Positions 8,480 through 25,915 of a stretch of DNA of 64,000 nucleotides are shown piece by piece. A program made the position numbers and the translations under genes. The notes under the pieces were generated by a model. That model was given only the letters and a program-made list of their open reading frames with translations. It was not told the origin of the DNA and did not search any database. The number at the start of each line of letters is the position of its first letter. The first letter of the stretch is position 1. This DNA is from Mytilus californianus (lineage: Eukaryota), in assembly GCF_021869535.1 (NCBI RefSeq), contig NW_026262745.1, positions 59,210,001 to 59,274,000 of the forward strand. The letters are read 5' to 3'.

Positions 8480-8521
8480 TGTAAACGTTACACACACGTT
8501 GACCTATCCACGTTTACATCC
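8421..8521 (+). repeat. 55-bp direct repeat (x2) at the inner left TIR border, upstream of polB
   Basis: ATCTTGTAAACG..ACACGTTGACCTATCCACGTTTACATCC at 8421 and 8476; the second copy lies mostly outside the TIR and has no right-end counterpart; TATA-like TATATAA at ~8527 follows. Confidence 0.85.
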
Positions 8522-8567
8522 CTTAGTATATAATGCAATGTGAACTAGTATCAATCATTCATTCAAT

Positions 8568-11500
8568 ATGGAAAATTATAACCATCACATGATTGACCAA
8601 CTGGTAAAAGTTATTCCACAAGATGTGTTACAGAAGTTACAACAGCTGTCAGCGCAGGACTTTAATGCAGTCTTACATTCAGTTAAACAACATAATCCAA
8701 CAGAAAAACAACTTGATAAAACTCCTACAGGAAAAGATGACAATGTAACAGATAAAGATAATGTATCAAATTTTAAGTGCCGAACATGCGGTAAGAAGTA
8801 TGCAAGAAAAGATCATTTAATTCGACACCAACACAACCATTCGAATATAAATTATGAATGTGAACATTGTGGTTTCACCACGAAAAGGAAAGATGTTTTA
8901 TCTACACATATGCAGGGAAAACATAATGTAAAGAAAAGAGCACAGAAGGAAGACAATGTACAACCCCCACGTAAACGTCAGAGGACAGAAGATGTTGACC
9001 AACCTCTCGAGGAACGAGTACGCAATGCAAGAGAGAAAAGATCGTTAACAACAACAGCTCTGAACGATGGTGTGGAAAATATTCAATTACAACCCAGCAA
9101 CAATGAAGAAAGATATGACTTGATGTTATTTTTCAAAGAAAAACAAGTGGATATTGTGCAAATATTAGAGGACAGGCTACTTAGAAATAATATAAAGTTT
9201 TATTTGAGTGTACATGTTAGAATGATTAAATATTCACCAGATGGAAAATACGACGAAGCTGAGCCGCATTTCAATAGTAAAGTGTGTACCATTTTACAAT
9301 CTGGTGCTAGTGAAATACCTCACGAGTTGAATAAAGGATTTCAAAAAGTATTCATTTCTTTCGAAGAATTCATCAAGAATGGGAGTGGATGGCAACTTGA
9401 AGAGGTTTTACAGCTCGATCTGTGCGTCACAAAGTACAAACCGTTAAAAGGAGGTAGTTATTTGGAACTACCAACATCACTTAAAAGATCGAACTGTATA
9501 CTCAACATTCAGAACTTGGACAACAAATGTTTTTTATGGACTGTTCTTTCAAGTATGCATAACTTTCAACGAAATCCAGAAAATGTAGAGAATTATGTTC
9601 CATTTGTTAACTCGGTTAACATGACTGGTATCGAGTATCCAACTCCGTTATCTCAAATATCACAATTCGAAAAACAGAATAACACTATCTCAGTTAACAT
9701 TTTTGGATACGAAGAAGGAGAAATCTACCCGTTATACATCACTAAGAAAACCTACTGTCATCATGTGAATATGTTATATTTAAAAGAAAACAACAAAAGT
9801 CATTATGTGTTGATAAACAACTTTAACAGGTTTTTATCGAGAACAAAGAAACATCGTGAAGAACATTTTTTTTGTTATCTTTGTTTGCAAGGATTTACTG
9901 ATAAATGCAAACTAGAGATGCATAAAGCAGACTGTGGAAAATTTGATTTTCAAAAAATTACACTTCCCAAGGAGGGTGAGGTTCTGGAATTCAAAGAATA
10001 TGCAAAAACCGCCCGAATTCCGTTTGTAATCTATGCTGATTTTGAGTGTTTAACACGGAAAGTCGATACTTGTCATCCGAATCCCAACACGTCAAGTACA
10101 ACTACATACCAACAAATGGAACCTTATAGTTTTGGTTATCAAAGAGTGTCAATTGATAAGCGATACGAAAAACCACCCGTTATATACCGTGGACCTGATG
10201 TTGTGGAGAACTTTATCCGTCATCTTCTTGAAGAAGAGAAAGAAATTAAAGACATACTAAGCCGCATCGAGCCAATGATAGTAACTGAGTATGATAAATT
10301 AGACTACAAATATGCCAAAAAATGTAAAAAAACCTTCAGCAGCAAAAATTACAAAGTCAAGGACCATGACCACGTTTCGGGGTCAATTCGTGGAATTTCG
10401 TGTAATAACTGTAATTTACAGATCAAAATACCGAAATTTATACCTATTGTTATTCATAATTTGAAAGGATTTGATGCAAATCTCATCATGAGTAAAATAG
10501 GAAAGTTTAAGGAACAAGACATCACTGTTATTCCACACAACAAAGAAAAATATATGTCATTTTCTATAGGAAATCTCCGTTTTATTGATTCTTTGCAATT
10601 TTTAAACAGTTCACTGGCAACTTTAACAAAAAACCTAGCTGACGAAGGAAAAAAACATTTTAAATACTTATCTAAAAGTTTTCCGGATCCAGATGTATTT
10701 TCTCTATTGCTACGAAAAGGAGTATTCCCCTATGATTATGTTGATACCGAGCAGAAATTGGAAAAACCTTGTTTACCATCCAAAGAAGATTTTTTTAACA
10801 AATTAGGAGACACTCACATATCTGATGAAGATTATCAATTTGCGCAAACAGTGTGGGACAAACTGAAAGTAAAAACATTAGGGGAATACTCCGATGTGTA
10901 TCTTAAAATGGATGTTGCTCTTTTGACGGATGTTTTTGAAAAATTTAGATACATTTCTTTGCACGACTATGATTTGGATCCGTGTCATTATTTCACCACC
11001 CCCGGATTTAGTTGGAGTGCCATGTTGAAGAAAACTGGAATTGTACTCGATTTAATCAGCGATATAGATATGATGTTGTTTATAGAGAAGGGAATAAGAG
11101 GTGGTGTATCTAGTATTTTTCATAGATATGCTAAAGCAAACAATCCATACTTATTCGATACGTATGAACCAACTGAATCTACTTCCTATTTATCTTATTT
11201 AGACGCAAACAATTTATATGGTTGGAGCATGTCTCAATGTCTTCCGTATGGTCACTTCAACTGGCTTACCGAGGAGGAGAAAATAAAATTAGATATCACA
11301 AAATTAAAAGTTGACGGTTCAGACGGATACATTTTCGAAGTTGACCTTGAATATCCATCGTCACTTCATTCTTCTCATTCCGATTTTCCTTTAGCTCCAG
11401 AAAGAAAACATATTCAAGTAGAACATTTATCTCCATATTCAAAGGAATTATTGCAATATTTAACTGGAAAGCAATGTTTGACAAAGATAGAAAAACTCGT

Positions 11501-12068
11501 TCCTAACCTATACGATAAGGAAAAATACATAGTGCATTATAGAAACTTACAACTATACGTAGAGTTAGGAATGAAGATCAAAAAGATACACAGAGTACTC
11601 AAGTTTAAACAAAGTCCCTGGTTGAAGAAGTACATAGACTTTAACACAGAAAAAAGGAAAAATGCAAAGAATGAATTTGAGAAATGTTTATATAAGCTGT
11701 TGAATAATTCAATTTTTGGTCGGACCCTCCTCAATACACGCAAGCATAAAGATGTGAAACTTTGTCACACGGAAGAGAAACTTAATAAAGAAACAGCTAA
11801 ACCATCCTACGCATCTTGCAAAATATTTAACGAAAATTTGGTAGCAGTGGAGAAAAAACGTGTGAATGTTTTAATGAAACAACCAATATACGTAGGTTTT
11901 TGCATTTTAGACTTATCCAAGTTTTTGATGTATGATTTTCATTATAACCATATGAAATCTCTGTATGGTGATAAAATTCGTGTGTGTTTTTCCGATACTG
12001 ATAGCTTTTTATATCACGTTGAAACGGAAGATGTGTATGAAGATATGCATCATTATCAAGATATTTAA
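8568..12068 (+). CDS. polB: Protein-primed family B DNA polymerase with N-terminal C2H2 zinc fingers and an endonuclease VII-like insert; ends at a premature TAA
   Basis: ExoI FVIYADFEC, ExoII IHNLKGFD, motif A YLDANNLYG, motif B KLLNNSIFG, motif C SDTDS; two C2H2 fingers at 8772-8924; DHDHVSGSIRGISCNNCN at ~10362-10415. Confidence 0.96.
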   Translation: MENYNHHMIDQLVKVIPQDVLQKLQQLSAQDFNAVLHSVKQHNPTEKQLDKTPTGKDDNVTDKDNVSNFKCRTCGKKYARKDHLIRHQHNHSNINYECEHCGFTTKRKDVLSTHMQGKHNVKKRAQKEDNVQPPRKRQRTEDVDQPLEERVRNAREKRSLTTTALNDGVENIQLQPSNNEERYDLMLFFKEKQVDIVQILEDRLLRNNIKFYLSVHVRMIKYSPDGKYDEAEPHFNSKVCTILQSGASEIPHELNKGFQKVFISFEEFIKNGSGWQLEEVLQLDLCVTKYKPLKGGSYLELPTSLKRSNCILNIQNLDNKCFLWTVLSSMHNFQRNPENVENYVPFVNSVNMTGIEYPTPLSQISQFEKQNNTISVNIFGYEEGEIYPLYITKKTYCHHVNMLYLKENNKSHYVLINNFNRFLSRTKKHREEHFFCYLCLQGFTDKCKLEMHKADCGKFDFQKITLPKEGEVLEFKEYAKTARIPFVIYADFECLTRKVDTCHPNPNTSSTTTYQQMEPYSFGYQRVSIDKRYEKPPVIYRGPDVVENFIRHLLEEEKEIKDILSRIEPMIVTEYDKLDYKYAKKCKKTFSSKNYKVKDHDHVSGSIRGISCNNCNLQIKIPKFIPIVIHNLKGFDANLIMSKIGKFKEQDITVIPHNKEKYMSFSIGNLRFIDSLQFLNSSLATLTKNLADEGKKHFKYLSKSFPDPDVFSLLLRKGVFPYDYVDTEQKLEKPCLPSKEDFFNKLGDTHISDEDYQFAQTVWDKLKVKTLGEYSDVYLKMDVALLTDVFEKFRYISLHDYDLDPCHYFTTPGFSWSAMLKKTGIVLDLISDIDMMLFIEKGIRGGVSSIFHRYAKANNPYLFDTYEPTESTSYLSYLDANNLYGWSMSQCLPYGHFNWLTEEEKIKLDITKLKVDGSDGYIFEVDLEYPSSLHSSHSDFPLAPERKHIQVEHLSPYSKELLQYLTGKQCLTKIEKLVPNLYDKEKYIVHYRNLQLYVELGMKIKKIHRVLKFKQSPWLKKYIDFNTEKRKNAKNEFEKCLYKLLNNSIFGRTLLNTRKHKDVKLCHTEEKLNKETAKPSYASCKIFNENLVAVEKKRVNVLMKQPIYVGFCILDLSKFLMYDFHYNHMKSLYGDKIRVCFSDTDSFLYHVETEDVYEDMHHYQDI

Positions 12069-12460
12069 GATACGAGTGATTATCCTCCAGAACATTTTTT
12101 ACATGACACCGAAAATAAAAAAGTAATAGGTAAATTCAAGGATGAAACAAGTGGAATCCCAATAAGTGAATTTGTTGGACTGAGATCGAAGATGTATTCA
12201 TTTTCTTTTGAAGGTGGAGAAAAGCATACTGCAAAAGGAGTAACAAAAACTGCATCCAGAAACTTAAACATGAAATGTACAAAAATTGCCTTTTCGATAA
12301 AACTGTTACACGTTCTGAAATGAATATAATAAGAAGCGAAAGCCATGTTTTATATACTAAAACTATTAATAAAAAATCATTTGTTCCTTTTGATGATAAA
12401 AGATGGATTTTAAATGATGGTGTGACAACGAGAGCCTTTGGACATAAAGACAACATATAA
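12069..12460 (+). pseudogene. polB: Disconnected C-terminal part of pPolB
   Basis: In frame after the TAA: DTSDYPPEH..KVIGKFKDE..EFVGLRSKMYS..AKGV; a -1 shift at ~12266-12269 (TTAAACATG) leads into KHEMYKNCLF..PFDDKRWIL..TRAFGH. Confidence 0.92.
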
Positions 12461-12980
12461 ACAAATGACATTTTTTTTATCATGTAAAACGTTCAAGTCT
12501 TATATGTTATTTTCTATTTGTTTTAACTATTTCGTATTTTTATTATTATTTTTGTTCATTTTTTTTTCTATATCAAAATTTGGGGTGATTAAAATAATAA
12601 TTAAACATTTAGCGAGGGAAACTATTATTTGTTCATTTGAGGGTTATTGTGTATATGTATTTTATTTTTTGTTTGTTTGTTTTCTTTTTGTCAAATGTGT
12701 ATTAATAACTAGAGCAAAGTGGGAATTTTTTTTTTTGGATATCAAAAATTTGTGGTGATTTAAATACGATTGTTACATATAGTGAAGGAGAATGTAGATG
12801 CATCATATTTTTATTATAATTTATTGTATATTGTATTCGATAGTATTTATTCAGTTTATTATTTTGTGTATGACAAAATTTGTTTGTGGGTAATTTAGTT
12901 ACTTTTTTCTTGTAATTTACTTTTACATCTATGTTTTATTTATTCCTGTTTTTTTTTTTTTTCGCATCCTATCTGATTGA

Positions 12981-13028
12981 AATAAAACATAAAATATCAA
13001 TGAATCCAGTTGTTTGTTTTCGTTTATT
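12981..13028. terminator. Convergent polyadenylation signals between polB and the major capsid gene
   Basis: AATAAA on + at 12981-12986 and TTTATT (AATAAA on -) at 13023-13028 in a T-rich spacer. Confidence 0.5.
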
Positions 13029-13124
13029 TGAATATATTGTAGTAAAACACACATTATAAAAAAAGATAGATATACACAATAAACAAACAGTCATAGTCAT
13101 GATTTTACAATTTACATGGAAATG

Positions 13125-14438
13125 TTAGTGTTCAATCTTTATTTGTCGATTCTCGGTTATTTCAAAGTATCCATAGTTTTCAGCTAAAATCAGTAAGGCA
13201 GCTGTTTCTGGTAATGGAGTACCGAACTGACATTCCAATCGTATTTTCCCCTGCTTCAGTAGTGAAAGATATTTGGTATCCGAAAAGAATGGTTCTAAGT
13301 TGAAGCATAGAAGCGTATATCCATTGTTGAATTCAGCCCTTGTTATTTCATTCCCCGTATCCAACATCCACTTTCCTCCTGTTTCAAACATTTTTACATA
13401 AGGAGAAACGTTCGATGCACCGCTATTCTCGTTGAAATCAAGTTTGAGTGGTATACCATCAACTGGTATTCCGTCACAAAACAGAGTCACCTGTTTTAAA
13501 TCATAATTCTTAAAGTTAAATGGGTTTTTTGTATATGCTCCAGACATAGCATTTGAAGAAACCAATCCAAGCACAATACTTTTCGGTCTCGCATCTTGGA
13601 AAACATTTTCTACGATTAACGAAGTACTTCCTTGCATTATTGTAAAATTTTTCATCATGGTTTTTGTGAAAGGATACTTAGCATTTGTTGTCTTTAAAGC
13701 TTCTGAATGAGCGACAATTATAGCTGGGTTAGGTCTGATCTTACAAAGCTTTATCACGACATCTTCCAAAGAAATATGATAGTTAGTTTCAATTTCTCCA
13801 GACATCAAACAAAAACTTGGATCGTTGCGGTATAATTTTAGTTTAAGGGATAACATATTTAGCAGGTATCTATCCATCTCAAAGATATCAGAAAAAACTG
13901 GTCCCTCCATTTCTAATGTTTTCGAATTAGAAATAAATTTTCTGCGTTCATACAGTCCAGTGTTAGTAGATATTTCATCCATGTGACCATACCTGTCTTT
14001 TAAGTACAGACTAGAAGATAATTGTGTGCTCTTTGCGTCTTGGCCATACTGCAGTAATGTTTTCATCATACATTTATACGGGTAATACGTATTACTAGAC
14101 GTTACCATTTGTCCTTGTATATAAACATCCAATTGCGACCAAAGCGATTGTAAAAATAAGTTCACAGGTCCTACCGTATCGCCATCTTGTAAATCTTCAC
14201 CATTTGCTTTTTTCACTTTTAATTTCACGTATAGTTTCGATCTTTTAAGATCTATATAATCCATACCATTGTTTGCACATAGATCGAATTCTATAGGATT
14301 GTAAGCTGTTATTTGACTAACAGGTCTGCATTCCTCGTATGTTATACTTTCAACACCGACTTGATATGGAGGTATCTCAAAAATCTGTAACTCTGACGGT
14401 TGTGCTTCAATAAAATTCTCTTTAGTTAACAAAGACAT
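13125..14438 (-). CDS. Maverick major capsid protein (double jelly-roll), 437 aa
   Basis: N-terminal SELQIF..PP.Q..ESITYEECRP..PIEF..DYIDL..LYVKLKV and later RPKSIVLGLV, NPFNF motifs match Polinton MCP as I recall them; size and synteny fit. Confidence 0.9.
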   Translation of the reverse strand: MSLLTKENFIEAQPSELQIFEIPPYQVGVESITYEECRPVSQITAYNPIEFDLCANNGMDYIDLKRSKLYVKLKVKKANGEDLQDGDTVGPVNLFLQSLWSQLDVYIQGQMVTSSNTYYPYKCMMKTLLQYGQDAKSTQLSSSLYLKDRYGHMDEISTNTGLYERRKFISNSKTLEMEGPVFSDIFEMDRYLLNMLSLKLKLYRNDPSFCLMSGEIETNYHISLEDVVIKLCKIRPNPAIIVAHSEALKTTNAKYPFTKTMMKNFTIMQGSTSLIVENVFQDARPKSIVLGLVSSNAMSGAYTKNPFNFKNYDLKQVTLFCDGIPVDGIPLKLDFNENSGASNVSPYVKMFETGGKWMLDTGNEITRAEFNNGYTLLCFNLEPFFSDTKYLSLLKQGKIRLECQFGTPLPETAALLILAENYGYFEITENRQIKIEH

Positions 14439-14839
14439 TATGTTGAAAATATATCCCTTTTATGTTTTTTAACAGTTTTATCTTTTTTCGATTTTTTCGT
14501 CTTCTTTTCACCTCCTCTGCTTTGTGGCGAATGATGATTTTTTCGCTTTCTTTTCTTTTTATTTATACTCTCACCGTCATTTTTTATCTCTTCTTTTGCT
14601 TGATTAACAATTTGTTCACTAGGCGACACTAACCGTACCTCAAAGTTTTTTTCTTTTTCAACACGAATTGGATAAGATTTATTCGAAATTGGAATCATAA
14701 ACGATCCCGATTGCGATCCTTTATTATGTCCATTTTTCATATGAGCTACGTAAGCGTTCGATTGACCAGAAATTACATTCTGATAATATCTAGACCATAG
14801 ATCAACATTAGGAATGTACATTTTATCAATGTTCGACAT
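14438..14839 (-). CDS. Basic Lys/Arg-tailed protein, 133 aa (candidate virion core/DNA-condensing protein)
   Basis: Intact ORF between minor and major capsid genes; C-terminal KKKRKRK..KKTKKSKKDKTVKKHKR; stop overlaps the MCP ATG. Function is inference. Confidence 0.7.
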   Translation of the reverse strand: MSNIDKMYIPNVDLWSRYYQNVISGQSNAYVAHMKNGHNKGSQSGSFMIPISNKSYPIRVEKEKNFEVRLVSPSEQIVNQAKEEIKNDGESINKKKRKRKNHHSPQSRGGEKKTKKSKKDKTVKKHKRDIFST

Positions 14840-14846
14840 ATCTACG

Positions 14847-15272
14847 CTAAAATACGCTTGGTATAAATTGTAGTGTAAAAGACAAATTATTTTTCAAAAA
14901 TGAAGCGTTTTCTCCGTGTTCATCTTTTATAAGAAATTCTAAGACTTGAATTTCGTTTTTCTTTACCGGTAAATAAATTGGAGACGAAAATAAATAATTC
15001 CATGTATTCATATCCGTGGGAAATATTCTTCGTAAAAGTGAATATTGTATATGGGGAAAAACATTCACTCCACTACATACATCACAAAACAAGTATAATT
15101 GATGATTGTTCTTTTTTGTAACTTTTTGATTAGAGTAAAAATCTAATATTCCTAGTTTCCATTCACCTTGTAATTGTAAAACTTCATTTAAACACACTTT
15201 GAACTTGAACGGTGAATTATTAGGGTAATATGCATCAGATTGATCACTTCGAATGAAAATTATATGTTCCAT
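14847..15272 (-). CDS. Minor capsid (penton-like single jelly-roll) protein, 141 aa
   Basis: S..YYPNNSPFKFKV.L...L.L.GEWKLGI and LYLFCDV..LLRRIF..Y.PV..EFLIKDEHG..F..FTLQF motifs of Polinton minor capsid. Confidence 0.85.
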   Translation of the reverse strand: MEHIIFIRSDQSDAYYPNNSPFKFKVCLNEVLQLQGEWKLGILDFYSNQKVTKKNNHQLYLFCDVCSGVNVFPHIQYSLLRRIFPTDMNTWNYLFSSPIYLPVKKNEIQVLEFLIKDEHGENASFLKNNLSFTLQFIPSVF

Positions 15273-16408
15273 TATGATAAAGATTGAATCTGTTCTTCTG
15301 GTATGTATTCGTCATACGAAGGAGGCCACCCTTGAAAACGAACTAAGTATTCAGTTTTTCCTCGTCTTTTTCGCTTCTTTAAAATTTTTTCAATTATCCA
15401 AAGACTATTTTCGTCTTTGTCTACTCTTTGAAGTTCACTATCATAAAAGGTTCCCCTTATGAATTCGTCTCCATTTATATTTGAAACCCTGTAAAGATCA
15501 ATATTTTGTTGTCTGAATCTTTGTACTACTTTGAATATCTCTTCCGTCCATCTTTGACTATACGATCGATCAAAAATATGAGCAATATTTGAGAGTCGAA
15601 CTAAAGAACCGATTTTGTATTTGTATTGTTTTTTTCTCTTTTTCTTTTTGTTTGTTTGTACTTTTATTTCTTTCATTTTTTTCTCTGTTTCACTTAAATA
15701 CATTTTCCCCCAGATATCACTCTCGTTGTCTGAATTAACGTCTTTAGGTGCAATGTTTTGTAAACTTCTATGAGGAGTATCATTATAGCTTTTTGCAAAA
15801 TTTTGCAAGTTGTTAATATATCTATGTGTTCTGTTCTTTGTGAAAAGGCGAAACATTTTATTCTTTATAGTTTGTAAGACTCTTTCAGCATAATTTGCGT
15901 GAAGTTCATTTTGAGCCGAAAAATGGCGGACACCATTCCTTTTAAATAATGACTGTGTCTTTTTGGCTAGAAATTCTTGTCCCTTATCTGTTCGAATTTT
16001 TTCCGGTTTTACCTCACTAAAAATCTTTTTAAATGCAGAGGTGACTTCATCTCCCGTTTTATTTTTCAATGGTTGTAACCAAAGATAGCGTGAGAAACAG
16101 TCAACAACAACTAACACGTATTTGTAATTTTCATTTTCTTGTGAAAATTGTTTAAGATCCATTAAATCGGCGTCCCATAAATTATTCAACCCCGTGGTAT
16201 ACACTCTTATTCTTTTAAAAGAACGACGAGGTGTTTTTTGTAAACTGTAATTATCTTGTGAATTCAACCACCGTTTAATTTGATGTCTACCAACTTTATT
16301 CCCATCTGCATTTACGATATGATACAGTTTTTCGGTAGAAGCATATGAAGCTGGTCCACCAACATCATAATAGTATTTACTTAGGAGAGTATCTAGTTCC
16401 TCATTCAT
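15272..16408 (-). CDS. int: Retroviral-type (rve) integrase with C-terminal chromodomain, 378 aa from the ATG at 16408
   Basis: WDADLMD, VVVDCFSRYLW, IRTDKGQEF, AERVLQTIK, YNDTPHRSL; chromodomain WIIEKILKKR..EYLVRFQGWP..DEYIPEE. Confidence 0.96.
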   Translation of the reverse strand: MNEELDTLLSKYYYDVGGPASYASTEKLYHIVNADGNKVGRHQIKRWLNSQDNYSLQKTPRRSFKRIRVYTTGLNNLWDADLMDLKQFSQENENYKYVLVVVDCFSRYLWLQPLKNKTGDEVTSAFKKIFSEVKPEKIRTDKGQEFLAKKTQSLFKRNGVRHFSAQNELHANYAERVLQTIKNKMFRLFTKNRTHRYINNLQNFAKSYNDTPHRSLQNIAPKDVNSDNESDIWGKMYLSETEKKMKEIKVQTNKKKKRKKQYKYKIGSLVRLSNIAHIFDRSYSQRWTEEIFKVVQRFRQQNIDLYRVSNINGDEFIRGTFYDSELQRVDKDENSLWIIEKILKKRKRRGKTEYLVRFQGWPPSYDEYIPEEQIQSLS

Positions 16409-16864
16409 ACTTAACTCAATTTGAACTGAATGTATATCTCGCAAATTAGTTTTAAGTAAAGTTTCACATATGAATCGGATTAGAGGTAAAAAAGATGGGG
16501 GGGGGGGGGGGGGGGGGGGTGGAAAAAAACAAAAAAAAAGTGTTTCAATAACTGAAATTAGTTTGTGTTTTGATTTAAGATATAAAAAAAGTTAAGAAAA
16601 AAAAAAAAACTTTTCATTAAGGAATGTAAATATTTGCATCTTTTTCATTTCTATTCGATTCTTATATAAATCTCTACCTAAAAACAATACCACTACATCA
16701 ATAAATAAGAAATACAAAAAAAAAAATATGTTTACATAATTTATTATAAAATCTATCACAAAAATAATGATGATGTCCTTTAAATATTGTCTGTCATTCA
16801 ATTCCATCTTTTATTCATTTCATTCCATCTTTTAATCATTCCGATCCATCTTTTATTCGAATGC

Positions 16865-19800
16865 TTAATGGTCTATTTCCATATTCTGTAAAACACAACA
16901 AAATTATTTAGTCAAAAATCATCACTTTACCAAGAATCAACACTATAGTATTATATTTAAATCACGTGACATTTTACATGACATAATCGGAAAAAGAAAG
17001 AAAAAAATGGTCGCCATGTTGCTTTTGAGTTTGTTATTTTGCTTTCAAAGTGTTGTAAATGTAGGAGCTGTACATATATCATCTTGCTACAGAGTTGAAG
17101 ATTTTATAGATTGTTCGAGGGAAACAGAAGAGAGCTTTCAGGGAGAGGTAGCAGATGACGTTTTAAACATTCGCTTCAACCATATACAGAGCAAACATCA
17201 AATTGAAGATGTTAAATTTACGAAGCATGTTATCATAATGTTGGAAGAATCTTTGAATTTGTGTGATGATATTAATCATAAACTGATGATGGTAGACGGG
17301 AAAATGTGTACAGTAAGTCTACATTCATTTTATTTGAATGGTAAAAATATAACACAATAAAAAAATTTGCATACATGAATATTCATGAAAGACTTCAAGT
17401 TATATTTCAATCACGTGATAAGTAAACATTTCTAGAAATAATATGAATCTCCTCGGTTGTCGAGTATAGTAGATCAGTGAATGAAATATCTAAATTACAA
17501 CATGGTTAAACTTCAACCGTTATTAATAACGATGACTGTCTTCATAACGGAGTTTATATACTTTATTCCTCATCTAATAAGAAGTCTATTCATCTTCCCA
17601 GTTATTTCTCTTTCTCTTATAAGAGTATACATGCATATTCTACTTCTAAACTCATAACTTACATCATTTTCAACATCGGAAGTGATGTCTATCATTTTTC
17701 TCTTCTTGTTCTGTAGAATAAAAAGTATCATCATTAGCTATAATGTATTAAACATTTATATATATAAAAAAAAAACAACCTTGGAAGTAAGGTATTAAAA
17801 ACATCTTTGTTTTCATTTACTCGTTTTTTTTATTTGCTTTACAATTATTTGTTTATTGGATGAATCTGGTTTTTTTCTCCTTTCTTTTTATTACTTATTA
17901 CCAAAAATCAAGATGTACTTACTAATGATGGTTTCGCGTCTACATTTTGACTCCCTCTGGGCTGACTCATGTTGGTTAAATCAAGCTGTTGAATAGAAAT
18001 TTATAAAAAAAACTTTTAAACATTTACACATGATAAAAAAAAAACAATAAAGCATGCAATGGATATTTTATTATTTTTTTTTTTTTTTACTTTAACCCTT
18101 TCTTAATAATATTGTTAACATTGTATAAATTGTATTACTTATAATGAGTTAAATCTATACATACACAGTAAGGATCTTTTTCGTCATCTTTTGTTAAGTC
18201 TATCATCTACAAAATAAACATGTATAGCTTTAAAATAAGAATATACAATCTTTTATGATGAAAATTAACTTTACACATATACTTTTAAATTGACATATTA
18301 ATTTTCTGAAAGCTCATATATACATGTATATATATTATTAATGTTATAAGCAATATAAAATTTATAAATAATACATATGGAGTTTAAAACCGATTTGCAA
18401 CTTATAATGAGTTAAATCTATACATACACAGTAAGGATCTTTTTCTACATCTTTTGTTAAGTCTATCATCTACAAAATAAACATGTATAGCTTTAAAAAA
18501 AGAATATACAATCTTTTATGATGAAAATTAACTTTACACATATACTTTAAATTGACATATTAATTTTCTGAAAGCTGATATTTACAAGCAATACTAAATT
18601 TATAATTAATTCATATGGAGTTGAAAACAGATTTGCTAATCTATATATAGTTTTCATTCATTAAAATGAATGAATATGCATACTTACTATGATATCTTGG
18701 GGGTTGCTTCTCTCCTGCATCTGTAAAATAAAAGAATTTATATATACTTTTTTTTAATAGATTACTGAATCAACTAATTCTTTCGCTGAGTCAAGTTGGA
18801 GTATTGACGATGAACTAATAACAGATACAGGTAATTTTCTTTTTTTTTTCTTTGTCTTTTTATTGAAATGATAACTAATTTCCTCCTCAGTGAGAATGAA
18901 TACTTTAATAAATCAGAAACTTGTATAAAGGAATCTTTTCTGTTTTTTCCTGTAACTGTAATCTTAATGTAAAATACTTTTATTTTCATGTAATAAGAAA
19001 TCTCAAAGAACCCTATCCTATCATTTTAAAGATATTATATTTTTTTTTTTTTTGTATTTATTTACAGTGACATTTTCAAACAGTAAAGATGAGGGAGAAA
19101 TTACTACATTAGAAATTCTTGGATGTAAGTATTTTTAGTTTTGAAATTATAAATATAAATTTCTATTAATCACGTTGATAAAAAGTGTAATGTGTACACA
19201 TCATATGTATAACAATTGTATTTATATTATTTGAAATATAAAAAATGTGATATCGTGTAATGAGATTGAGAAAACTCTTCGTTAATCGCTTTGGGTGTAA
19301 GAAAAGAAGAAAAATAGATTTAAGTGAACTACTTGTGAAAATCATGTATTTTCATGCAAAAAAAAAAATTACTTTTCAGATGTGGAAAATACAGAGGGAA
19401 ACGATAATGAAATTTATGTTATATTATTAGGTGTACTCTCATTTGTTTGTATATTTATAATTTTTGTTTTTATGATATTGTATAGGAAACATATATGTTT
19501 TAAATGTTATAGTCATAATATTCTTCCTTCACACGTAGACACAGTTTCACTTAGAAGAATGTCTAGCATTACTTCATTGACAAGTGATAATGAAATTGTG
19601 TTTTCGTGTGAAATGGAACGAAAATGTAAGTAAGATTTTTTTTTATATTAATTAGGTTAGCTTTATTCACAGTTAAACTTCTTTTTATTTCAGATATTTT
19701 GTCATCCTTTACAGTAATTATATTAGGACTTATCCCTATGAGGCAGAGTGTCAAAGACTTGCTAATACATTCTATACAAAAGATTTTTACAATGGCTATT

Positions 19801-20180
19801 AATAGAAATTTGAACTATAATACATTTATCAATCTTTTATATCAGTTACTTAATTATATTTTTCATTATTTTATTCAGAAAAGAAAACCTTTACGTAGGA
19901 GCAACAGACGTCGTGTTGCTCCAAATAGATTAATGTATAATCAGTTTTGAGTTTTGAAATATTATAGTGTACACACTCAATTCTAGTTTCATGGATAAAT
20001 TTTTACTTTCCTACTATTTCAAAAGTTATTAAAGTATTCATTGGAATTAAACCAAAAACAAAAATCTATTCTTTTTAAACTGTGAAAAAAACTTACCTTA
20101 ATATCTTGAACCAATGACGACAGCTGTAACAGACATTTCTCAATCATAACTATTTTGATGAGGTTCTTATTTGAATTCAT
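16865..20180 (-). CDS. Predicted 5-exon 82-aa protein antisense to the membrane gene; exons 20180-20097, 18720-18688, 17985-17923, 17710-17663, 16885-16865
   Basis: All four donors GTAAGT, all acceptors CAG after pyrimidine tracts, all exons multiples of 3 (84, 33, 63, 48, 21 nt), no internal stop, AATAAA just after the TAA. Confidence 0.72.
17007..19950 (+). CDS. Predicted 6-exon type I membrane protein (~256 aa) inside the Maverick; exons 17007-17312, 18761-18830, 19068-19124, 19380-19625, 19694-19713, 19879-19950
   Basis: All introns GT-AG with pyrimidine tracts; phases 0,1,1,1,0 give a continuous ORF: signal peptide, 4-Cys ectodomain, S/T/acidic stalk, TM IYVILLGVLSFVCIFIIFVFMILY followed by RK. 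Last two exons less certain (alternative stop at 19633). Confidence 0.78.
17525..17632 (-). pseudogene. Degenerate paralogue of the 25528-25836 ORF
   Basis: MYTLIREREITGK vs MYTLLRERELTGK (11/13 identical); after a frame change MRNKVYKLRYED vs IRNRVDKLHHEE. Confidence 0.65.
18137..18640. repeat. 263-bp tandem duplication (~1.9 copies), intronic for both spliced genes
   Basis: ACTTATAATGAGTTAAATCTATACATACACAGTAAGG at 18137 and 18400. Confidence 0.9.
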
Positions 20181-20659
20181 TTTTTTCTTCTTTTTTTTTC
20201 TTTTACAGTTTGCAACTTATTAACATATGATTATCAAACAAGTGTTAAGGTGTATTTATTAGTACTTCACATCCTGGATTAAGTGAATGGGAGGGGTATA
20301 AGGAATTATCTATACAAAGGGTGGAATAATGGAGATGTTTTTTTTTTTAATCCTCATTTTTTTTCATATATCAATTATCTAATCTCTTTGTATTTGAAAG
20401 AAACAATACAAGTTGTTATTTGTAGGTGGGGTCTGATTTTATTTACTCAATCTTTCATTTGCTGTTGTGAAAAAACACCTCATAGTTTATTATGATAAAA
20501 GATTAAATTATTGTTTGAAAGAAAGGTGATTGATTGATTAGAAATACCCCCTCCCTCATTTGTTTACACTTTTAGTCAATTAATTTTTGAGAATTAAATT
20601 GTCTGAAGACTATTAACTTGGAAAGTTTTTCATACATCTATATAATTAACAAGTTTGTT

Positions 20660-21125
20660 GTATAGTGCTATAAAAAAAAAAAGATATATAATATCACTAA
20701 TTCAATGATAATGAACTCCTCACCCCTTTATTAAAACATAAGGTTGTCTCCCTTTAAGGTTGTGTGCTTTTTTCTATTTAATCTTGAAATAGTAATATGT
20801 TACTCAGGGAAAACAAGTTTTTTTATATAGTTATGTAATATACATGTTGTTTTTTTTTTCTTTTCTGTATAGTGTTATAAACAAGATATATGATATCTAT
20901 ATTGCAATGATAATTAACTACTCAATCATTTTATTAACACATAAAGTTGTCTCCCTTTAAGGTTGTGTGCTTTTTTCTATTTAAACTTGCAATAGTAATA
21001 TGTTACTCAGGGAAAACATTTTTTTATATAGTTATGTAATATACATGTTTTTTTTTTCTTTCTTTTTTGTATAGTGCTATAAAAGAAAGATATATGATGT
21101 CAATAATGTATCAATAATTAACTTC
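20660..21125. repeat. ~200-bp tandem duplication (~2.3 copies) in the Maverick AT-rich spacer
   Basis: GTTGTCTCCCTTTAAGGTTGTGTGCTTTTTTCTATTTAA at ~20744 and ~20946. Confidence 0.88.
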
Positions 21126-21975
21126 TCAAACTGATAAATTTTTTTTTTGTGTGTGTGTGCGTCTAATTTACTGTTTTAAAACTAAATTATAAATGTGTGT
21201 AAAAAAAAAAAAAATGATAGAGTTTATCTTCTTTTTTACTTTTTATAATACACAATGTTGGAAAGATATATCTTGTTTGTATATGTAAAGTTATGTAAAT
21301 ATGTTACACCCAACCAGTAAAGTTTATGTTTATTGATAGTGTTGCATTTTAAAAATGTTCTTATGTGATATGTTATTACAATCATGGTGCACTTTAAAAA
21401 CATATTTGTCTTTAAAGAATTTTTTTGTATATATGTTACTTTTAATATAAAAACATTGTTATATGCTATGTAAAACCCAAAATAATAGTACTAATGTATT
21501 TTTAAAAATTAAAAAATATTTAATTGATGAAATTTATTATAATTTAGACTGGAAAAAATAAAACTTTTATTTTCACTTTGCAAATTCATAAAGTATACCA
21601 CCATACAGTATTTTTTATATTAATAAAATAAGTTGATAACAATTATACTTTTGTTTATCTCATTGTTTTTGTTAGTAGTTAATCTTCACTGCAGAGAAAC
21701 ACATACTTTCAGGATATTGTGAGCTCTTAATTGGTGGTGATTTCAATGTTATAAAATTTTTACTTTTCCTTTATTTGCTATTGCTAAGAATTAGTCTATG
21801 CTTTAAGGAAGTTGTCTGGAAAAGGGATTTCATTGATTGACATCATCACATCATTAAACAAACAAAAAATAACCATCTTAGTCTGATAGTTAAAATGAAT
21901 AATCAACACAAACCATTATTCTATATTTATTAGCATACAATAAAAAAAAAAAAAAAAAAAACATTAGAAAGGATA

Positions 21976-22578
21976 TTACAATTTGAATCTTTTCCATTTA
22001 AGTTTAGGTTTGTCATCAAGCAGTCTTGAAAGTTCTCTTTTTACACAAAGTTTATTGTTATTTGTCTGTTTTTTCTTTTTTCTAACGTGTTCACTTTCAG
22101 CTAATAGTTCATTTTTCAGTGTTGTAGTTGTATCCGATTGAAACAGTTGTCTTCTCATTCTATTTGAAATAAATCCCATAGGTATGTGGATCGTTTTAAG
22201 AAAATTATAAAAATGTATATATCCATTAGGTGGATGTTTGCATCCATATGGAATGACAACATCCCGCAATAAGTCAACAATATGAGTGTTTGGTATAGTT
22301 TCGTTGTTAATATGAATTTCTCCTCGTTTGTTCCAACTAATTAATGGTTGAGTCTGAAGAAAGTTCAATAGTTGTTTCCCCTTCTCTCTATATTTCACTG
22401 GTATGGTCAGCTCGATTAAAGTGTTCAATTCATGGTCAGAATTTTCATTTTTGGTTATTAATTCCTCCTTTGGTGAAAATTCTTCCTTAGAACAAGTTTG
22501 TTTGCTGCTTTCATTGTTTTCTGTTTGTACTATACTTTCATATCTATGTTTTGGAAGAAGAATCATTTCTCTTGTCAT
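21976..22578 (-). CDS. Maverick-associated hypothetical protein (~200 aa)
   Basis: Intact ORF with ISWNKRGEI..NETIPNTHIVDLL motif that I recall from Maverick ORFs; first ATG at 22578; overlaps the upstream ORF. Confidence 0.75.
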   Translation of the reverse strand: MTREMILLPKHRYESIVQTENNESSKQTCSKEEFSPKEELITKNENSDHELNTLIELTIPVKYREKGKQLLNFLQTQPLISWNKRGEIHINNETIPNTHIVDLLRDVVIPYGCKHPPNGYIHFYNFLKTIHIPMGFISNRMRRQLFQSDTTTTLKNELLAESEHVRKKKKQTNNNKLCVKRELSRLLDDKPKLKWKRFKL

Positions 22579-22888
22579 TTTTAATTGTTTCAAGTATTGG
22601 TTTTACAATAATAGGAATAATGTTATGATATTTCAGAAACAATTTTTTTCTCTGAATACGTGATGTCTCTCTGTGTGTTATTTTCCGAATGATACTTTTA
22701 TATTTCATAAGTTTCTTTTTAACTGATCGGCTAAGATGAAATACCCCCCATAACACATTTAAAAAACACTCAACTAAAAGTTGAAATTGTTTGTCGTTCA
22801 TAGTCTTCAACAATGCAATTTTCTGTTCTTCGTCATATGTAATTAAAAGCGATAAAAAATGTACATGGGCTAAAACTTGTTTACTCAT
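22544..22888 (-). CDS. Short helical basic Maverick protein (114 aa; possibly the PM-type core ORF)
   Basis: LVECFLNVLWGVFHLS..KKKL.KYK.IIRKI motif; ATGA overlap with the ATPase stop. The PM label is tentative. Confidence 0.7.
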   Translation of the reverse strand: MSKQVLAHVHFLSLLITYDEEQKIALLKTMNDKQFQLLVECFLNVLWGVFHLSRSVKKKLMKYKSIIRKITHRETSRIQRKKLFLKYHNIIPIIVKPILETIKNDKRNDSSSKT

Positions 22889-23550
22889 TTTGGAACAAAA
22901 ATTACTGGATCTTCTCCTTTGAAAATTTTTGTTCTCAATAAATATGTTTTATCTGTATGCGTTGACAAATCGATAATCAAATAACCAAACCTACTACAAA
23001 CTGCCTTTTCATAAGCTGACATGAAATAGTTTAATTGACCTGGGAGAATCTGTCTTCCTAAAACTGATAACTGGTGTTTGTCACGTTGGTTTTTTAGACA
23101 TATTATGTATGTTGCGTTTAACGAAATAGTACGTATGCATTTTCCAGGAGGGAAAAGATTTTGCATAAGAAACAAAACTGTTATATTACAATGATGAGAT
23201 TTGACGGTAAAAAGATTTAATACATCACTAGAGTTTGAAGCTTGACATAATAAATCATCAAGACAAAGAATCATATGTTCTTTATTTTCTGACCATTTAT
23301 CAATTTCCTCACTGGATGGTAAACCTTCGTGAAAAGTTATGTTTCTAACTTTTTTTTCCATCTCTGAAAACAAATTCTGATATGCAGAGTAACAATAAAT
23401 GGTTTTCTTTGGTGTTTTGGTAAATAGGTATTCAGATTGAGCCAGGATTTTATATGTAAGCATGGTTTTTCCTGACTGAGTAGGTCCAACTATTTGTATA
23501 CAACACGGTGATTGAAACGGCAAAAGCACTTTCTCCGTGTCTTCACACAT
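22885..23550 (-). CDS. FtsK/HerA (A32-like) genome-packaging ATPase, 221 aa
   Basis: Walker A GPTQSGKT, Walker B ILCLDD, FTVKSHH.NITV.FLMQNLF, RTISLNATY, YLIIDL. Confidence 0.95.
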   Translation of the reverse strand: MCEDTEKVLLPFQSPCCIQIVGPTQSGKTMLTYKILAQSEYLFTKTPKKTIYCYSAYQNLFSEMEKKVRNITFHEGLPSSEEIDKWSENKEHMILCLDDLLCQASNSSDVLNLFTVKSHHCNITVLFLMQNLFPPGKCIRTISLNATYIICLKNQRDKHQLSVLGRQILPGQLNYFMSAYEKAVCSRFGYLIIDLSTHTDKTYLLRTKIFKGEDPVIFVPK

Positions 23551-23852
23551 TTTTGTTTGTTTGTTGTCTAAACCTTAATTGACTTATGGATTGTGATTTA
23601 TTTTTCAAGGTATTTGTTTGTTTTATATACTGTTATTTCTAACTTGTTTTAGTTTTTTTTATTTGAGAAAGAAAATACACCACCAGAAAGAAAAAAAAAG
23701 AATCAAAATACATCACCAGAAAAAAAAGAATCAAAATACTACAACTGAAAAAAAAAAAGAACCAAGTACACAATAAAGTGCAACAAATGAAGTAAAATAC
23801 GGATGCAACCTAATGATTCCGGAATAAAAAGGCGGATATTAACGAACGATTC

Positions 23853-23935
23853 CGGAAATGATCGGAAATGACTTTACATTCGGAAATAAACGAATGTTTC
23901 CGACTACTACCGGAAATAAATATACATACGGAAAT
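23853..23935. promoter_or_regulatory. Cluster of five CGGAAAT motifs upstream of the ATPase gene block
   Basis: CGGAAAT at 23853, 23863, 23881, 23911, 23929 in otherwise CpG-poor DNA; the regulatory role is inferred. Confidence 0.5.
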
Positions 23936-24107
23936 AAACGAATGATTACGAATACAATCGAAATGATATAAACGAACATGAAGTCATTTCTAATCTTTAC
24001 CAGAAATATAATTTTTTCATTAAAAAATAAATACACAACGAAAAAATTTCATATCAGTATACTAATTTATTCAATGAAATATACATGTATTTATATATAA
24101 TACAATC

Positions 24108-24512
24108 TTATTGTGTGAAACGTTCTTCAAGTTTTACTTTCCTTTCCATTAAATTATAAACAGTCTCTTTCATTTTTTGTGATCGAAGTGTATCAAGGAA
24201 CAACACATGAAGAATGAAAAAGTTTAAAACGACACTATTTTCCAAGTTCAATGTTCTCACATTTTCTCTGTACTTTCCTAGTATGTGACTGTATTTAAAT
24301 TCACAATACGCCTGTTCAAAATGTTTTTCAAGTTTATCCAGTTCACTATCCATCAAACAATCGTGTCTATGTTGTGATCCATGTTCAACTTTGCATCCCT
24401 GGCAAAACTTCTTTGATAATTGTTGCACCATTTCTTCTAATAATTCAGCAAAAGAAAACAATAATATAGTTGAAAGTAGCCTTTTTCCCATACCGTCTTT
24501 AATGTCCACCAT
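24108..24512 (-). CDS. Accessory protein with CxxC..HxSQxxHxC putative zinc-binding motif, 134 aa
   Basis: FCQGCKVEHGSQHRHDCL; intact ORF 7 nt downstream of the previous stop. Confidence 0.75.
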   Translation of the reverse strand: MVDIKDGMGKRLLSTILLFSFAELLEEMVQQLSKKFCQGCKVEHGSQHRHDCLMDSELDKLEKHFEQAYCEFKYSHILGKYRENVRTLNLENSVVLNFFILHVLFLDTLRSQKMKETVYNLMERKVKLEERFTQ

Positions 24513-24519
24513 TATATTA

Positions 24520-24780
24520 TCAGTGTTCGTCTATAAATGAATAAAGAAATAAGATGCTTTCCTTTAGATTACACAGTTTTGTCCAATTTTCTTTACTGAT
24601 CAGAATCTTTTTCCCTTTTATAACAAGCTGTAATCGGGTATGTTTTCCTCTTTTCTTCACCACCACTTTTATCGTTTCATCAATTAAACATTCAATCTGT
24701 TTCTTGAATAAATCAGTATGCAAATGTTCAAAGTCACAACCGTACACCTCCTTAGATAAATCAACCTGTGCCTGTGCCAT
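24520..24780 (-). CDS. Small accessory protein, 86 aa (weakly PC4-like)
   Basis: Intact ORF; KKILISKENWTKLCNLKESI resembles the PC4 C-terminal strand-helix pattern; similarity is weak. Confidence 0.55.
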   Translation of the reverse strand: MAQAQVDLSKEVYGCDFEHLHTDLFKKQIECLIDETIKVVVKKRGKHTRLQLVIKGKKILISKENWTKLCNLKESILFLYSFIDEH

Positions 24781-24943
24781 TGATATAATTGTGTACTTTT
24801 ATAGTTGTGGTCGCGGATTAAATTGTTCATAATGATTCATAAAAAGATTAACGAAACGTATAGTAAACGTTTCAGTCACGTGAGGGGGAGGAGGGTCACT
24901 AAAACACTCCTTTTTTCCTCCTTTCTTTTAATATGAATATCAT

Positions 24944-25174
24944 TTATATTTTATTTATAGAGGGGTTTGGTAAAATGTAACCAGTACAACCACTTAACAA
25001 ACTAACCCATAGTTCTATACTTCCATTTTGTGTTGACAAATTAACAACTGCTGCAATAACAATTATGAAAACTATTATCATCTGACAAAAATACACGATC
25101 TCTGCTTTTGGTACATTCTGCCCGAAAAAACACCACTTTGTTTGAGGGTTTTCTGTGCTCATTCTCTCTAACAT
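24944..25174 (-). CDS. Small two-TM membrane protein, 76 aa
   Basis: Hydrophobic segments IVYFCQMIIVFIIVIAAVVNL and LWVSLLSGCTGYILPNP. Confidence 0.75.
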   Translation of the reverse strand: MLERMSTENPQTKWCFFGQNVPKAEIVYFCQMIIVFIIVIAAVVNLSTQNGSIELWVSLLSGCTGYILPNPSINKI

Positions 25175-25527
25175 TTCAACTTAAATGATTTTTTTTTTTC
25201 ATATACACAAAAATATATATCTATATTTTATAGGAGAATTTCATTAAGAAGGTGTAATTTCCAATTTTCAATATGAAAACTTTTGTTATCATAATGCTGT
25301 TTTAGTTGAAATAATGTGTGTTTATCAATCGAAAGTAATAAAATATATAATCTAGTTTTCTTTTCTTCGAAAATAAACGAGTTGTGAACCTTTTGTAAAT
25401 ATTTCATAATCGTTGGAGAAGAAAATCGAACTGATCATGTACAACAATAAAATACTCTTTTTGAATGATTTGTTGGTCCTAAAAAGGACCGTTGTACGCA
25501 TGTAAATGATATACATGGATTTTTTTT

Positions 25528-25836
25528 TTATTGGTAGTTGACAGGATCCATAAACTTGTAGTCTGCTAACACTGCATCAAAGTAACAACCACAAAAATAA
25601 AGATCTTCAATAAACTCTGGGTGGTGTTCAAAGTTGTATAGAATACAAACAATGTAACCGTTTTTTAGAAGCCATGTTTCTACTGGACACCGAGATAGTT
25701 CTTCATGATGAAGTTTATCAACCCTGTTCCTTATCAAATTTGCAGTCTTTTTTGGACCTCTTCGCGATCGTCTGATCTTTCCTGTCAATTCTCTTTCTCT
25801 TAAAAGTGTATACATATTAAAATTTTGGAGATTCAT
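25528..25836 (-). CDS. Hypothetical protein, 102 aa, first ORF inside the right TIR
   Basis: ATG-initiated intact ORF with TATA-like sequence at ~25873-25879 upstream; has an internal paralogue at 17525-17632. Confidence 0.7.
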   Translation of the reverse strand: MNLQNFNMYTLLRERELTGKIRRSRRGPKKTANLIRNRVDKLHHEELSRCPVETWLLKNGYIVCILYNFEHHPEFIEDLYFCGCYFDAVLADYKFMDPVNYQ

Positions 25837-25915
25837 ATTGTTTGTTCTTATGGAAATACTGTTGATGTATGATATATAGTAAACGTTTTTCTTAGTTTAT
25901 AAACTGATTGCATTC

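What the first reader, a model, noticed from the sequence alone, without database searches (positions are those of the whole stretch)
17007..19950. Maverick-borne type I membrane protein with a 4-Cys ectodomain and signalling-like tail
Seen: a signal peptide, a ~80-aa ectodomain with four Cys (CYRVEDFIDC..C..C), an S/T/D/E-rich stalk from two micro-exons, a 24-aa TM helix followed by RK, and a cytoplasmic tail with RRMSS and LRRSNRRRVAPNRL. Known: Mavericks have an adenovirus-like non-enveloped capsid module, which does not need a surface glycoprotein. Inference: an immune modulator analogous to adenovirus E3 proteins, a superinfection-exclusion factor, or a captured host gene. I do not recognise the family.
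Basis: partly seen in the sequence, partly recalled or inferred. Interest (0 to 1): 0.8.

Follow-up and report, generated by a model that had tools for sequence, protein, structure and literature searches.

The report
Mussel Maverick two-tailed membrane protein
A virus-like jumping element in a mussel genome carries an optional spliced gene that likely makes two membrane proteins with the same small four-cysteine outer domain but different inner tails, one likely holding it in the endoplasmic reticulum and the other predicted to grip chromatin.

Summary
The gene is real and sits in a recently inserted 18.5-kb Maverick (512-bp identical TIRs, TATATT target duplication) in Mytilus. Exons 1-3 (signal peptide, four-Cys ectodomain, S/T/D/E stalk) end in one of two alternative last exons. 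Exon 4 gives a TM helix and a tail ending RKxK (228 aa; RefSeq model, joint not seen in my RNA data). Exon 5 gives another hydrophobic helix, an amphipathic helix and RRSxRxRxxPxRL (229 aa; joint seen in an RNA-like contig). The layout and both motifs persist in two other Maverick families at about 30% identity, and RefSeq has both isoforms in M. trossulus. No host donor gene was found. A sister subfamily with 90-100% identical core genes lacks the 5.5-kb cassette, so it is an accessory module. The ectodomain folds (pLDDT 88) as a tiny beta-solenoid weakly like extracellular LRR caps (Z at most 5.4). RKxx is a known COPI retrieval signal; the exon-5 tail is predicted to dock on the H2A-H2B acidic patch (0.63, best control 0.02). 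Best reading: an ER / inner-nuclear-membrane adaptor rather than a surface protein. Localisation and binding are untested.

The parts
7968..26427 (.). Maverick/Polinton element (family A), AGTAGT...ACTACT termini, 6-bp target-site duplication TATATT
7968..8479 (.). left terminal inverted repeat, 512 bp identical to the right one, with 65-nt tandem units
25916..26427 (.). right terminal inverted repeat
8568..12470 (+). protein-primed PolB with N-terminal C2H2 fingers and endonuclease VII domain; broken in this copy by a stop at 12066-12068 and a later frameshift
   Evidence: PolB label from polymerase motifs, recalled
13125..14438 (-). putative major capsid protein
   Evidence: ORF; label from Maverick gene layout (recalled); no Pfam or PDB sequence hit
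14847..15272 (-). putative minor capsid protein
   Evidence: ORF; label recalled; 113 matches in genome
15272..16408 (-). rve integrase with C-terminal chromodomain
   Evidence: Pfam rve E 2.7e-14, Chromo E 4.4e-8
16425..21961 (.). accessory cassette carrying the gene; replaced by an unrelated ~0.4-kb spacer in a sister subfamily
   Evidence: 6 of 6 sister copies lose homology at 16424 and regain it at 21962-21964
17007..17312 (+). exon 1: predicted signal peptide (aa 1-21) and four-Cys ectodomain (C27, C36, C86, C101), predicted small beta-solenoid
18761..18830 (+). exon 2, S/T/D/E stalk
   Evidence: joint 17312>18761 GT..AG in X1 and X2; also X3, X4
19068..19124 (+). exon 3, stalk; its donor serves either last exon (phase 1)
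19380..19633 (+). alternative last exon 4: TM helix 19412-19483, LRRMSS (19550-19567), C-terminal RKCK (19619-19630); isoform of 228 aa
   Evidence: RefSeq P0001, same exon in families B and C; joint to exon 3 not seen in 8 runs laid
19694..19950 (+). alternative last exon 5: second predicted TM (with end of exon 3), amphipathic helix 19819-19872, LRRSNRRRVAP (19891-19923); isoform of 229 aa
   Evidence: joint 19124>19694 in X3; RefSeq P0002
19951..20400 (+). 3' untranslated region, covered unspliced by RNA-like contigs to at least 20400
21976..23550 (-). two conserved Maverick ORFs (here called PM, PW) and the packaging ATPase
   Evidence: ATPase weak AAA hits E 0.02; names recalled
24108..25836 (-). 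four small conserved ORFs, including a 76-aa hydrophobic protein (24944-25174), all also present in family B

Best explanation
An optional 5.5-kb cassette of mussel Mavericks holds a spliced five-exon gene that likely makes two predicted type I membrane proteins with a shared lumenal four-Cys domain: the exon-4 form is likely kept in the ER by a C-terminal RKxx signal, and the exon-5 form would reach the inner nuclear membrane and is predicted to bind nucleosomes through RRSxR. Shown: the element, the cassette and its absence from a sister subfamily, splicing of exons 1-2-3-5, conservation of both last exons in three families, purifying selection on exon 1. Predicted: signal peptide, TM helices, beta-solenoid fold, acidic-patch docking. 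Inferred: ER and nuclear-envelope location, and the role as an adaptor that links the ER/perinuclear lumen to chromatin for the benefit of the element during its nuclear phase; the lumenal partner is unknown.
For: Splice joints 17312>18761 and 19124>19694 in RNA-like contigs; the X2 contig matches this copy with 0 differences over 16996-17312 while the closest other copies differ at 2-3 sites. Two RefSeq isoforms in M. californianus and the same pair for a 30%-identical gene in M. trossulus (P0011, P0019). In family B the exon-4 end offers only an out-of-phase donor, so exons 4 and 5 are alternatives. RKxK ends 7 of 10 distinct exon-4 ends; RRSxRxR is followed by PxRL in 6 of 9 exon-5 ends; background 15 of 1073 and 1 of 1073 frame segments. 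RKxx is listed as a COPI retrieval motif (PMC8208577; SCYL1, PMC4871519). RRSAR / RRSSR bind the acidic patch in HMGN and Dsup (PMC12487698). Complex prediction of residues 197-229 with mussel H2A-H2B: score 0.63, best of 3 controls 0.02, runs agree in at least 78% of contacts, partner pLDDT at least 59; R212-R218 contact H2A 61, 64, 90-92 with R216 central; the mark was reached by 51 of 78 solved complexes and 2 of 108 mismatched pairs. Amphipathic moment 1.96 (A) and 1.76 (B) in the exon-5 tail. dN/dS of exon 1 between subfamilies mostly 0.1-0.5.
Against: No localisation or binding data. The exon 3-4 joint was seen in none of 8 runs laid; it rests on RefSeq models and conserved phase. The joint-bearing contigs X1-X4 come from one study and are only guessed to be RNA; the one raw RNA run gave 8 reads, none in exon 1 (6% read). 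The complex pass may come from likeness to solved arginine-anchor complexes; peptides are outside the calibration and no scrambled Arg-rich control was run. RRSxR could equally bind DNA or act as a nuclear localisation or phosphorylation site. The exon-5 hydrophobic stretch is moderate (KD 2.1-2.3). 3 of 10 exon-4 ends lack RKxK, all in degraded copies. Contig X4 joins exon 3 to 32 letters found neither in the window nor in the genome, so more isoforms may exist.
Confidence: 0.45

Rival explanations
1. Host-modulating or superinfection-exclusion protein: the lumenal LRR-like domain binds a host receptor (for example a TLR or the element's own entry receptor) and either holds it in the ER, as adenovirus E3-19K does with MHC I, or acts as a decoy at the surface.
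For: E3-19K-like architecture with a dibasic C-terminal signal; ectodomain resembles caps of extracellular LRR receptors, 39 of 50 VIA rows; dispensable for the core element; transcribed from a copy whose PolB is broken; fast divergence relative to core genes (30% against 54-65%).
Against: Does not explain the conserved RRSxR tail of exon 5; no partner identified; fold similarity is weak (Z at most 5.4). It is compatible with the best explanation for the exon-4 isoform only.
Confidence: 0.27
2. Virion membrane protein: the exon-5 form bends a membrane with its amphipathic helices and binds the viral core with its basic tail, giving the particle an envelope or inner membrane.
For: Amphipathic helices and a tail of net charge +9; adintovirus PLA2X and GasderminX carry a pX-like basic C-terminus (PMC8502044 section 3.2); nematode Mavericks carry a type I membrane fusogen; no adenain detected in families A and B, so assembly may differ.
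Against: 7 of 7 sister-subfamily copies with 90-100% identical capsid and ATPase genes lack the cassette; the ectodomain is 80 aa with no fusogen fold; long introns are unlike the compact morphogenesis genes.
Confidence: 0.15
3. A captured host gene riding as a passenger, or a cassette being domesticated by the mussel, with no role for the element.
For: Five-exon structure with a 1.4-kb intron; cargo genes with introns lie beside the integrase in nematode Mavericks; family B exon 1 is amplified in tandem away from core genes.
Against: No single-copy host gene in three genome searches; all 20 neighbourhoods examined hold Maverick genes or share family B terminal or subterminal DNA; selection acted between element subfamilies while near-identical copies decay.
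Confidence: 0.13

Closest known systems
Nematode Maverick cargo (wasp, krma) and fusogen mfus-1 (bioRxiv 10.1101/2022.07.12.499685, passages read)
   Same: Intron-bearing, poorly conserved gene placed next to the integrase; family B has it between TIR and integrase exactly as described; MFUS-1 is also a signal-peptide, single-TM protein.
   Different: MFUS-1 is 866 aa with a herpesvirus gB fold; this ectodomain is 80 aa. No transcription of nematode Maverick genes was detected, whereas this gene is spliced. No host-family donor found here.
Adenovirus E3-19K (PMC12714902, passages read)
   Same: Small non-essential type I membrane protein of a related virus lineage with a C-terminal dibasic ER-retrieval signal.
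   Different: RKxK instead of KKxx; predicted beta-solenoid lumenal domain; no MHC I in mussels (recalled); a second isoform with a chromatin-type tail; no sequence or fold match found.
HMGN / Dsup nucleosome-binding motif (PMC12487698, passages read) and CENP-C motif (PMC13021935, passages read; consensus recalled)
   Same: RRSxR core predicted to sit on the H2A-H2B acidic patch with an arginine anchor.
   Different: Here the motif ends a predicted membrane protein; it lacks the LSA of HMGN and the YW of CENP-C.
Minimal extracellular LRR proteins (GPIb-beta / GPIX, LRRNT caps of TLR, FLRT, Slit)
   Same: C-x8-DC start, parallel beta rungs, best structural matches (Z 5.0-5.4, rmsd about 3 A over 72-79 residues).
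   Different: No Pfam LRR hit, only a degenerate repeat, 8-16% identity, unrelated folds score nearly as high (Z 4.9).
Adintovirus membrane-active accessory genes PLA2X, GasderminX, Cupiennin (PMC8502044, section 3.2 read)
   Same: Maverick/adintovirus accessory proteins linked to membranes, two of them with a basic pX-like C-terminus.
   Different: No signal-peptide, spliced, single-pass protein is described in that section; supplementary maps not seen.

Membership tests
Maverick/Polinton | long terminal inverted repeats with AGT-type ends and a 6-bp target-site duplication | tested here: met
   512-bp identical TIRs, TATATT on both sides
Maverick/Polinton | rve integrase and protein-primed PolB | tested here: met
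   Pfam rve and Chromo; PolB motifs visible, label recalled; PolB broken in this copy
Maverick/Polinton | packaging ATPase and jelly-roll capsid proteins | tested here: inconclusive
   ATPase with Walker A and weak AAA hits; capsid ORFs had no Pfam, PHROG or PDB sequence hit and were not folded
Adintovirus-type Maverick | adenain maturation protease | tested here: inconclusive
   No ORF fits in families A or B; PF00770 matched 2 other places in the genome, only at E 0.007, so sensitivity is low
Type I membrane protein | cleaved signal peptide plus one TM helix on the same transcript | tested here: inconclusive
   Hydropathy peaks at both places; exon 1 joined to exon 5 in X3; exon 3-4 joint not seen; SignalP and DeepTMHMM not available
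Extracellular LRR proteins | LRRNT cap and parallel beta-solenoid fold | tested here: inconclusive
   Model pLDDT 87.6; VIA Z up to 5.4, 39 of 50 rows LRR proteins; Foldseek none at E 0.001 or better
Extracellular LRR proteins | canonical LxxLxLxxNxL repeats detectable by profile | tested here: not met
   No LRR family among Pfam hits for 16 members or 6 proteins; only Slit2 at E 0.61 and a plant LRR protein by summed repeats
Adenovirus E3-19K | sequence or fold homology of the lumenal domain | tested here: inconclusive
   Not listed in PDB sequence or fold searches
Adenovirus E3-19K | C-terminal dibasic ER-retrieval motif | tested here: met
   RKxK at the end of exon 4 in families A, B and C; RKxx named as retrieval motif in PMC8208577; function untested
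HMGN/Dsup-type acidic-patch binders | RRSxR motif docking on the H2A-H2B acidic patch | tested here: inconclusive
   Motif present in 3 families; model 0.63 against 0.02, but may reflect solved look-alikes
HMGN/Dsup-type acidic-patch binders | measured nucleosome binding | not testable with these tools
   needs a binding assay
Maverick fusogen MFUS-1 / class III fusogens | large gB-like ectodomain | tested here: not met
   ectodomain is about 80 aa in all homologues against 866 aa for MFUS-1

The most novel reading that the evidence does not exclude
Mussel Mavericks encode their own inner-nuclear-membrane chromatin tether: one gene, two alternative last exons, giving an ER-resident form and a nuclear-envelope form that clamps nucleosomes through an HMGN-like anchor while a miniature LRR-like domain works in the lumen. 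This would be a new kind of virus or transposon accessory protein and a handle on how Mavericks use the nuclear envelope.
Probability: 0.3. Interest if true: 0.85.

Novelty: new variant of a known kind. Interest (0 to 1): 0.66.

Why it matters
How Mavericks live inside animal cells is largely open: particles and host interactions are barely known, and nematode Maverick genes were found silent. Here an accessory gene is spliced, kept under purifying selection across three element families, and present or absent in near-identical sister elements, which gives a natural comparison. Its two tails make cheap, direct predictions (ER retrieval, nucleosome binding at the nuclear envelope) that can be tested with single expressed proteins and peptides. 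The 80-aa four-Cys domain is an undescribed family that extends to unnamed environmental contigs.

Tried and rejected
Single-sequence fold of the 228-aa isoform: pLDDT 43, not used. ESM Atlas: LRR and ECPIP clusters at 0.79-0.83, leads only; no usable hit for P0011. Pfam Orf78 (ac78) hit to the TM exon, E 0.005-0.06, below cut-off, compositional. Syntaxin and T4 clamp-loader profile hits: incompatible with a disulfide-type beta domain, rejected. P0028 and P0030: summed repeat matches, not counted as homologues. Viral fold library: nothing at E 0.001 or better. IMG/VR scans and JGI metagenome scans: no related locus, so the context of the distant homologues is unknown. No run on record as an RNA holder was listed. 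No cover of the 5' part of exon 4 in any laid run; contigs show presence only. The reading frame YSNYIRTYPYEAEC behind 19694 was considered as a tyrosine tail and rejected: wrong phase and not conserved in B or C. A 311-aa exon 1-2-3-4-5 form is in frame in family A only and was not seen. Independent transposon inserted into the Maverick: no terminal repeats at the cassette ends. Literature searches found no description of this gene; supplements were not read, and the adintovirus supplementary maps could hold it under an Adintoc name. Earlier scan findings: none.
Full report
Setting. The window holds a complete Maverick at 7968-26427: 512-bp identical terminal inverted repeats, AGTAGT and ACTACT ends and a TATATT target duplication, so the insertion is recent. 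It encodes a PolB (broken in this copy by a stop at 12066-12068 and a later frameshift), an rve-chromodomain integrase, an ATPase and ORFs that I label major and minor capsid from the usual gene layout (recalled; no profile hit). No adenain was detected (low sensitivity). RefSeq names for the identical proteins give the host as Mytilus californianus, LOC127716459.

Observation. Signal-like N-terminus, four Cys, stalk micro-exons, TM helix plus RK and both tail motifs are in the sequence. Of 8 runs laid, X1 and X2 join 17312 to 18761; X3 carries exons 1-2-3 joined to 19694 (GT..AG) and continues unspliced to 19874; X4 carries exons 1-2-3. Contigs in X1, X2 and X4 cross 19879 unspliced. So the intron 19714-19878 is not used and 19694-19950 is one exon. 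The exon 3-4 joint was not seen. The X1 contig stops two letters past exon 3, which fits a fork at the AT that starts both last exons (inference; letters not shown). X1-X4 are one study and only guessed to be RNA, but GT..AG joints and empty introns show splicing. The single raw RNA run gave 8 reads, none in exon 1. The X2 contig has 0 differences from this copy where the nearest other copies have 2-3. Models 1-2-3-4 and 1-2-3-5 equal RefSeq isoforms X1 (228 aa) and X2 (229 aa).

Family. Exon 1 gave 53 matches in the genome, falling into families A (this one), B and C at about 30% identity; searches with a family C exon and a distant homologue found no further family and no single-copy host gene. 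Of 20 neighbourhoods of 20 kb, 10 hold integrase, capsid or PolB genes, 1 holds weaker Maverick matches, 4 start at an AGTAGT terminus upstream of the gene and 5 share family B subterminal DNA. Family B is a circular permutation of the same gene set, with the gene between TIR and integrase. In other Mytilus species gene models fuse the domain to capsid, integrase or PM pieces (P0004, P0010, P0003), again pointing to Mavericks, and M. trossulus has the same two isoforms (P0011, P0019). B and C keep the exon order, with both last exons in phase 1; in B the only donor at the end of exon 4 is out of phase with exon 5; all family C exon-5 copies seen are broken. A full HMMER scan of 1.84 billion representatives gave 19 hits: 10 named Mytilus proteins, 7 unnamed exon-1-like ORFs from ENA or Logan contigs besides P0020, and 2 repeat artefacts that I dropped (one of the hits counted as unnamed is P0020). 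All four Cys are invariant in 10 of 10 diverse rows. Their genomic context could not be fetched.

Dispensable cassette. Among 20 further minor-capsid loci, 7 are family-A-like with core genes mostly 88-100% identical, and all 7 have PM about 0.4-0.5 kb from the integrase and no gene; 1 has a family B gene; 12 more distant ones gave no match. In 6 of 6 sister copies aligned, homology to the window ends at 16424 and resumes at 21962-21964. PM and PW of the sister are only 55-82% identical, which suggests a recombined block; loss and exchange are not separated. Between subfamilies dN/dS of exon 1 is 0.29-0.48 in B pairs with dS of 0.2 or more and 0.09-0.40 in C pairs with dS above 0.3, while three near-identical pairs give 0.78-2.68, as expected for decay.

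Ectodomain. With an 18-row alignment AlphaFold2 gives pLDDT 87.6, pTM 0.77, a small beta-rich solenoid. Foldseek has no match at E 0.001 or better. VIA-align ranks GPIb ectodomain first (Z 5.0, rmsd 3.4, 76 residues) and 39 of 50 rows are LRR proteins by my reading of the titles, mostly aligned from their N-terminal cap; TLR8 and FLRT3 reach Z 5.4 and 5.1. An unrelated hydrolase scores 4.9 and Pfam finds no LRR, so this is LRR-like, not shown LRR.

Tails. Exon 4 keeps HVxxxxLxRxxSI and ends RKxK in A, B and C: 7 of 10 distinct ends, against 15 of 1073 random frame ends. RKxx is named as a COPI retrieval motif (PMC8208577 passages; PMC4871519 passages), and adenovirus E3-19K uses a dilysine tail for ER retrieval (PMC12714902 passages). 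Exon 5 gives a moderate hydrophobic helix (KD 2.1-2.3), a strong amphipathic helix and RRSxRxRxxPxRLxY. HMGN and Dsup bind the nucleosome acidic patch with RRSAR and RRSSR (PMC12487698 passages). Folding residues 197-229 with the mussel's H2A and H2B gave 0.63 against a best control of 0.02, with at least 78% contact agreement and partner pLDDT at least 59; residues 211-221 touch H2A 60-64 and 88-94, R216 at the centre (mark reached by 51 of 78 solved and 2 of 108 mismatched pairs). Like complexes are solved, peptides are outside the calibration and no scrambled basic control was run, so this shows likeness, not binding.

Mechanism. Most likely (0.45) the gene makes an ER-retrieved isoform and an inner-nuclear-membrane isoform that tethers nucleosomes, both showing the same small domain in the continuous ER and perinuclear lumen. 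A small nucleoplasmic tail that binds chromatin is the usual way such proteins are held at the inner membrane (recalled). What the element gains is inferred: help in its nuclear phase or control of a host lumenal protein. Rivals: receptor retention or exclusion (0.27), virion membrane protein (0.15), passenger or domesticated host gene (0.13).

Comparison. Intron-bearing cargo beside the integrase and a single-pass fusogen are known from nematode Mavericks (bioRxiv 10.1101/2022.07.12.499685 passages). Adintovirus accessory genes include membrane-active proteins with pX-like ends but no such spliced single-pass protein in the section read (PMC8502044). Bivalve genomes are rich in these elements (bioRxiv 10.1101/2025.04.19.649669 passages). 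Five literature searches found no description of this gene (listings only); supplements were not seen. The CENP-C consensus is recalled; the paper read (PMC13021935 passages) confirms only the arginine-anchor mechanism.

Verdict. New variant of a known kind; interest 0.66.

Noticed in passing
window 7968-26427 and G000:C88:113422500-113441600: Families A and B have the same gene set in circularly permuted order, and neither shows an adenain protease, although other Mavericks in the genome have a weak PF00770 match.
   Followed up: partly
window 24944-25174 (-): Conserved 76-aa hydrophobic ORF (70% identical in family B), a second candidate membrane protein of this Maverick group.
   Followed up: no
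run X4, behind window 19126: Exon 3 is joined to 32 letters found neither in the window nor in the genome by exact pattern search; possibly a third last exon or a chimeric transcript from another insertion.
   Followed up: partly
G000:C145:94500-122500: Tandem array of family B exon 1 with about 6.4-kb period; similar tandem copies give multi-domain gene models in M. edulis, M. coruscus and M. galloprovincialis (P0004-P0007, P0016).
   Followed up: partly
G000:C24: Many Maverick copies of all three families and of other groups cluster on this contig.
   Followed up: no
L134-L138, L141, L143: Sister subfamily of family A whose PM and PW are only 55-82% identical while flanking genes are mostly 88-100%, a likely recombined block.
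   Followed up: partly
window 29141-31111 (-): 656-aa ORF with nSTAND3 NTPase and ankyrin repeats (Pfam E 7e-26 and 2e-24), a likely host innate-immunity gene outside the element.
   Followed up: no
window 55570-58999: 3.4-kb segment flanked by inverted arrays of a 16-nt unit with no long ORF, possibly a non-autonomous foldback element.
   Followed up: partly
window 45476-46213 and 41694-42434: Tandem arrays with 75-nt and 147-nt periods.
   Followed up: no
window 18137-18551 and 20645-21129: 263-nt and about 203-nt tandem duplications inside intron 1 and downstream of the gene.
   Followed up: no
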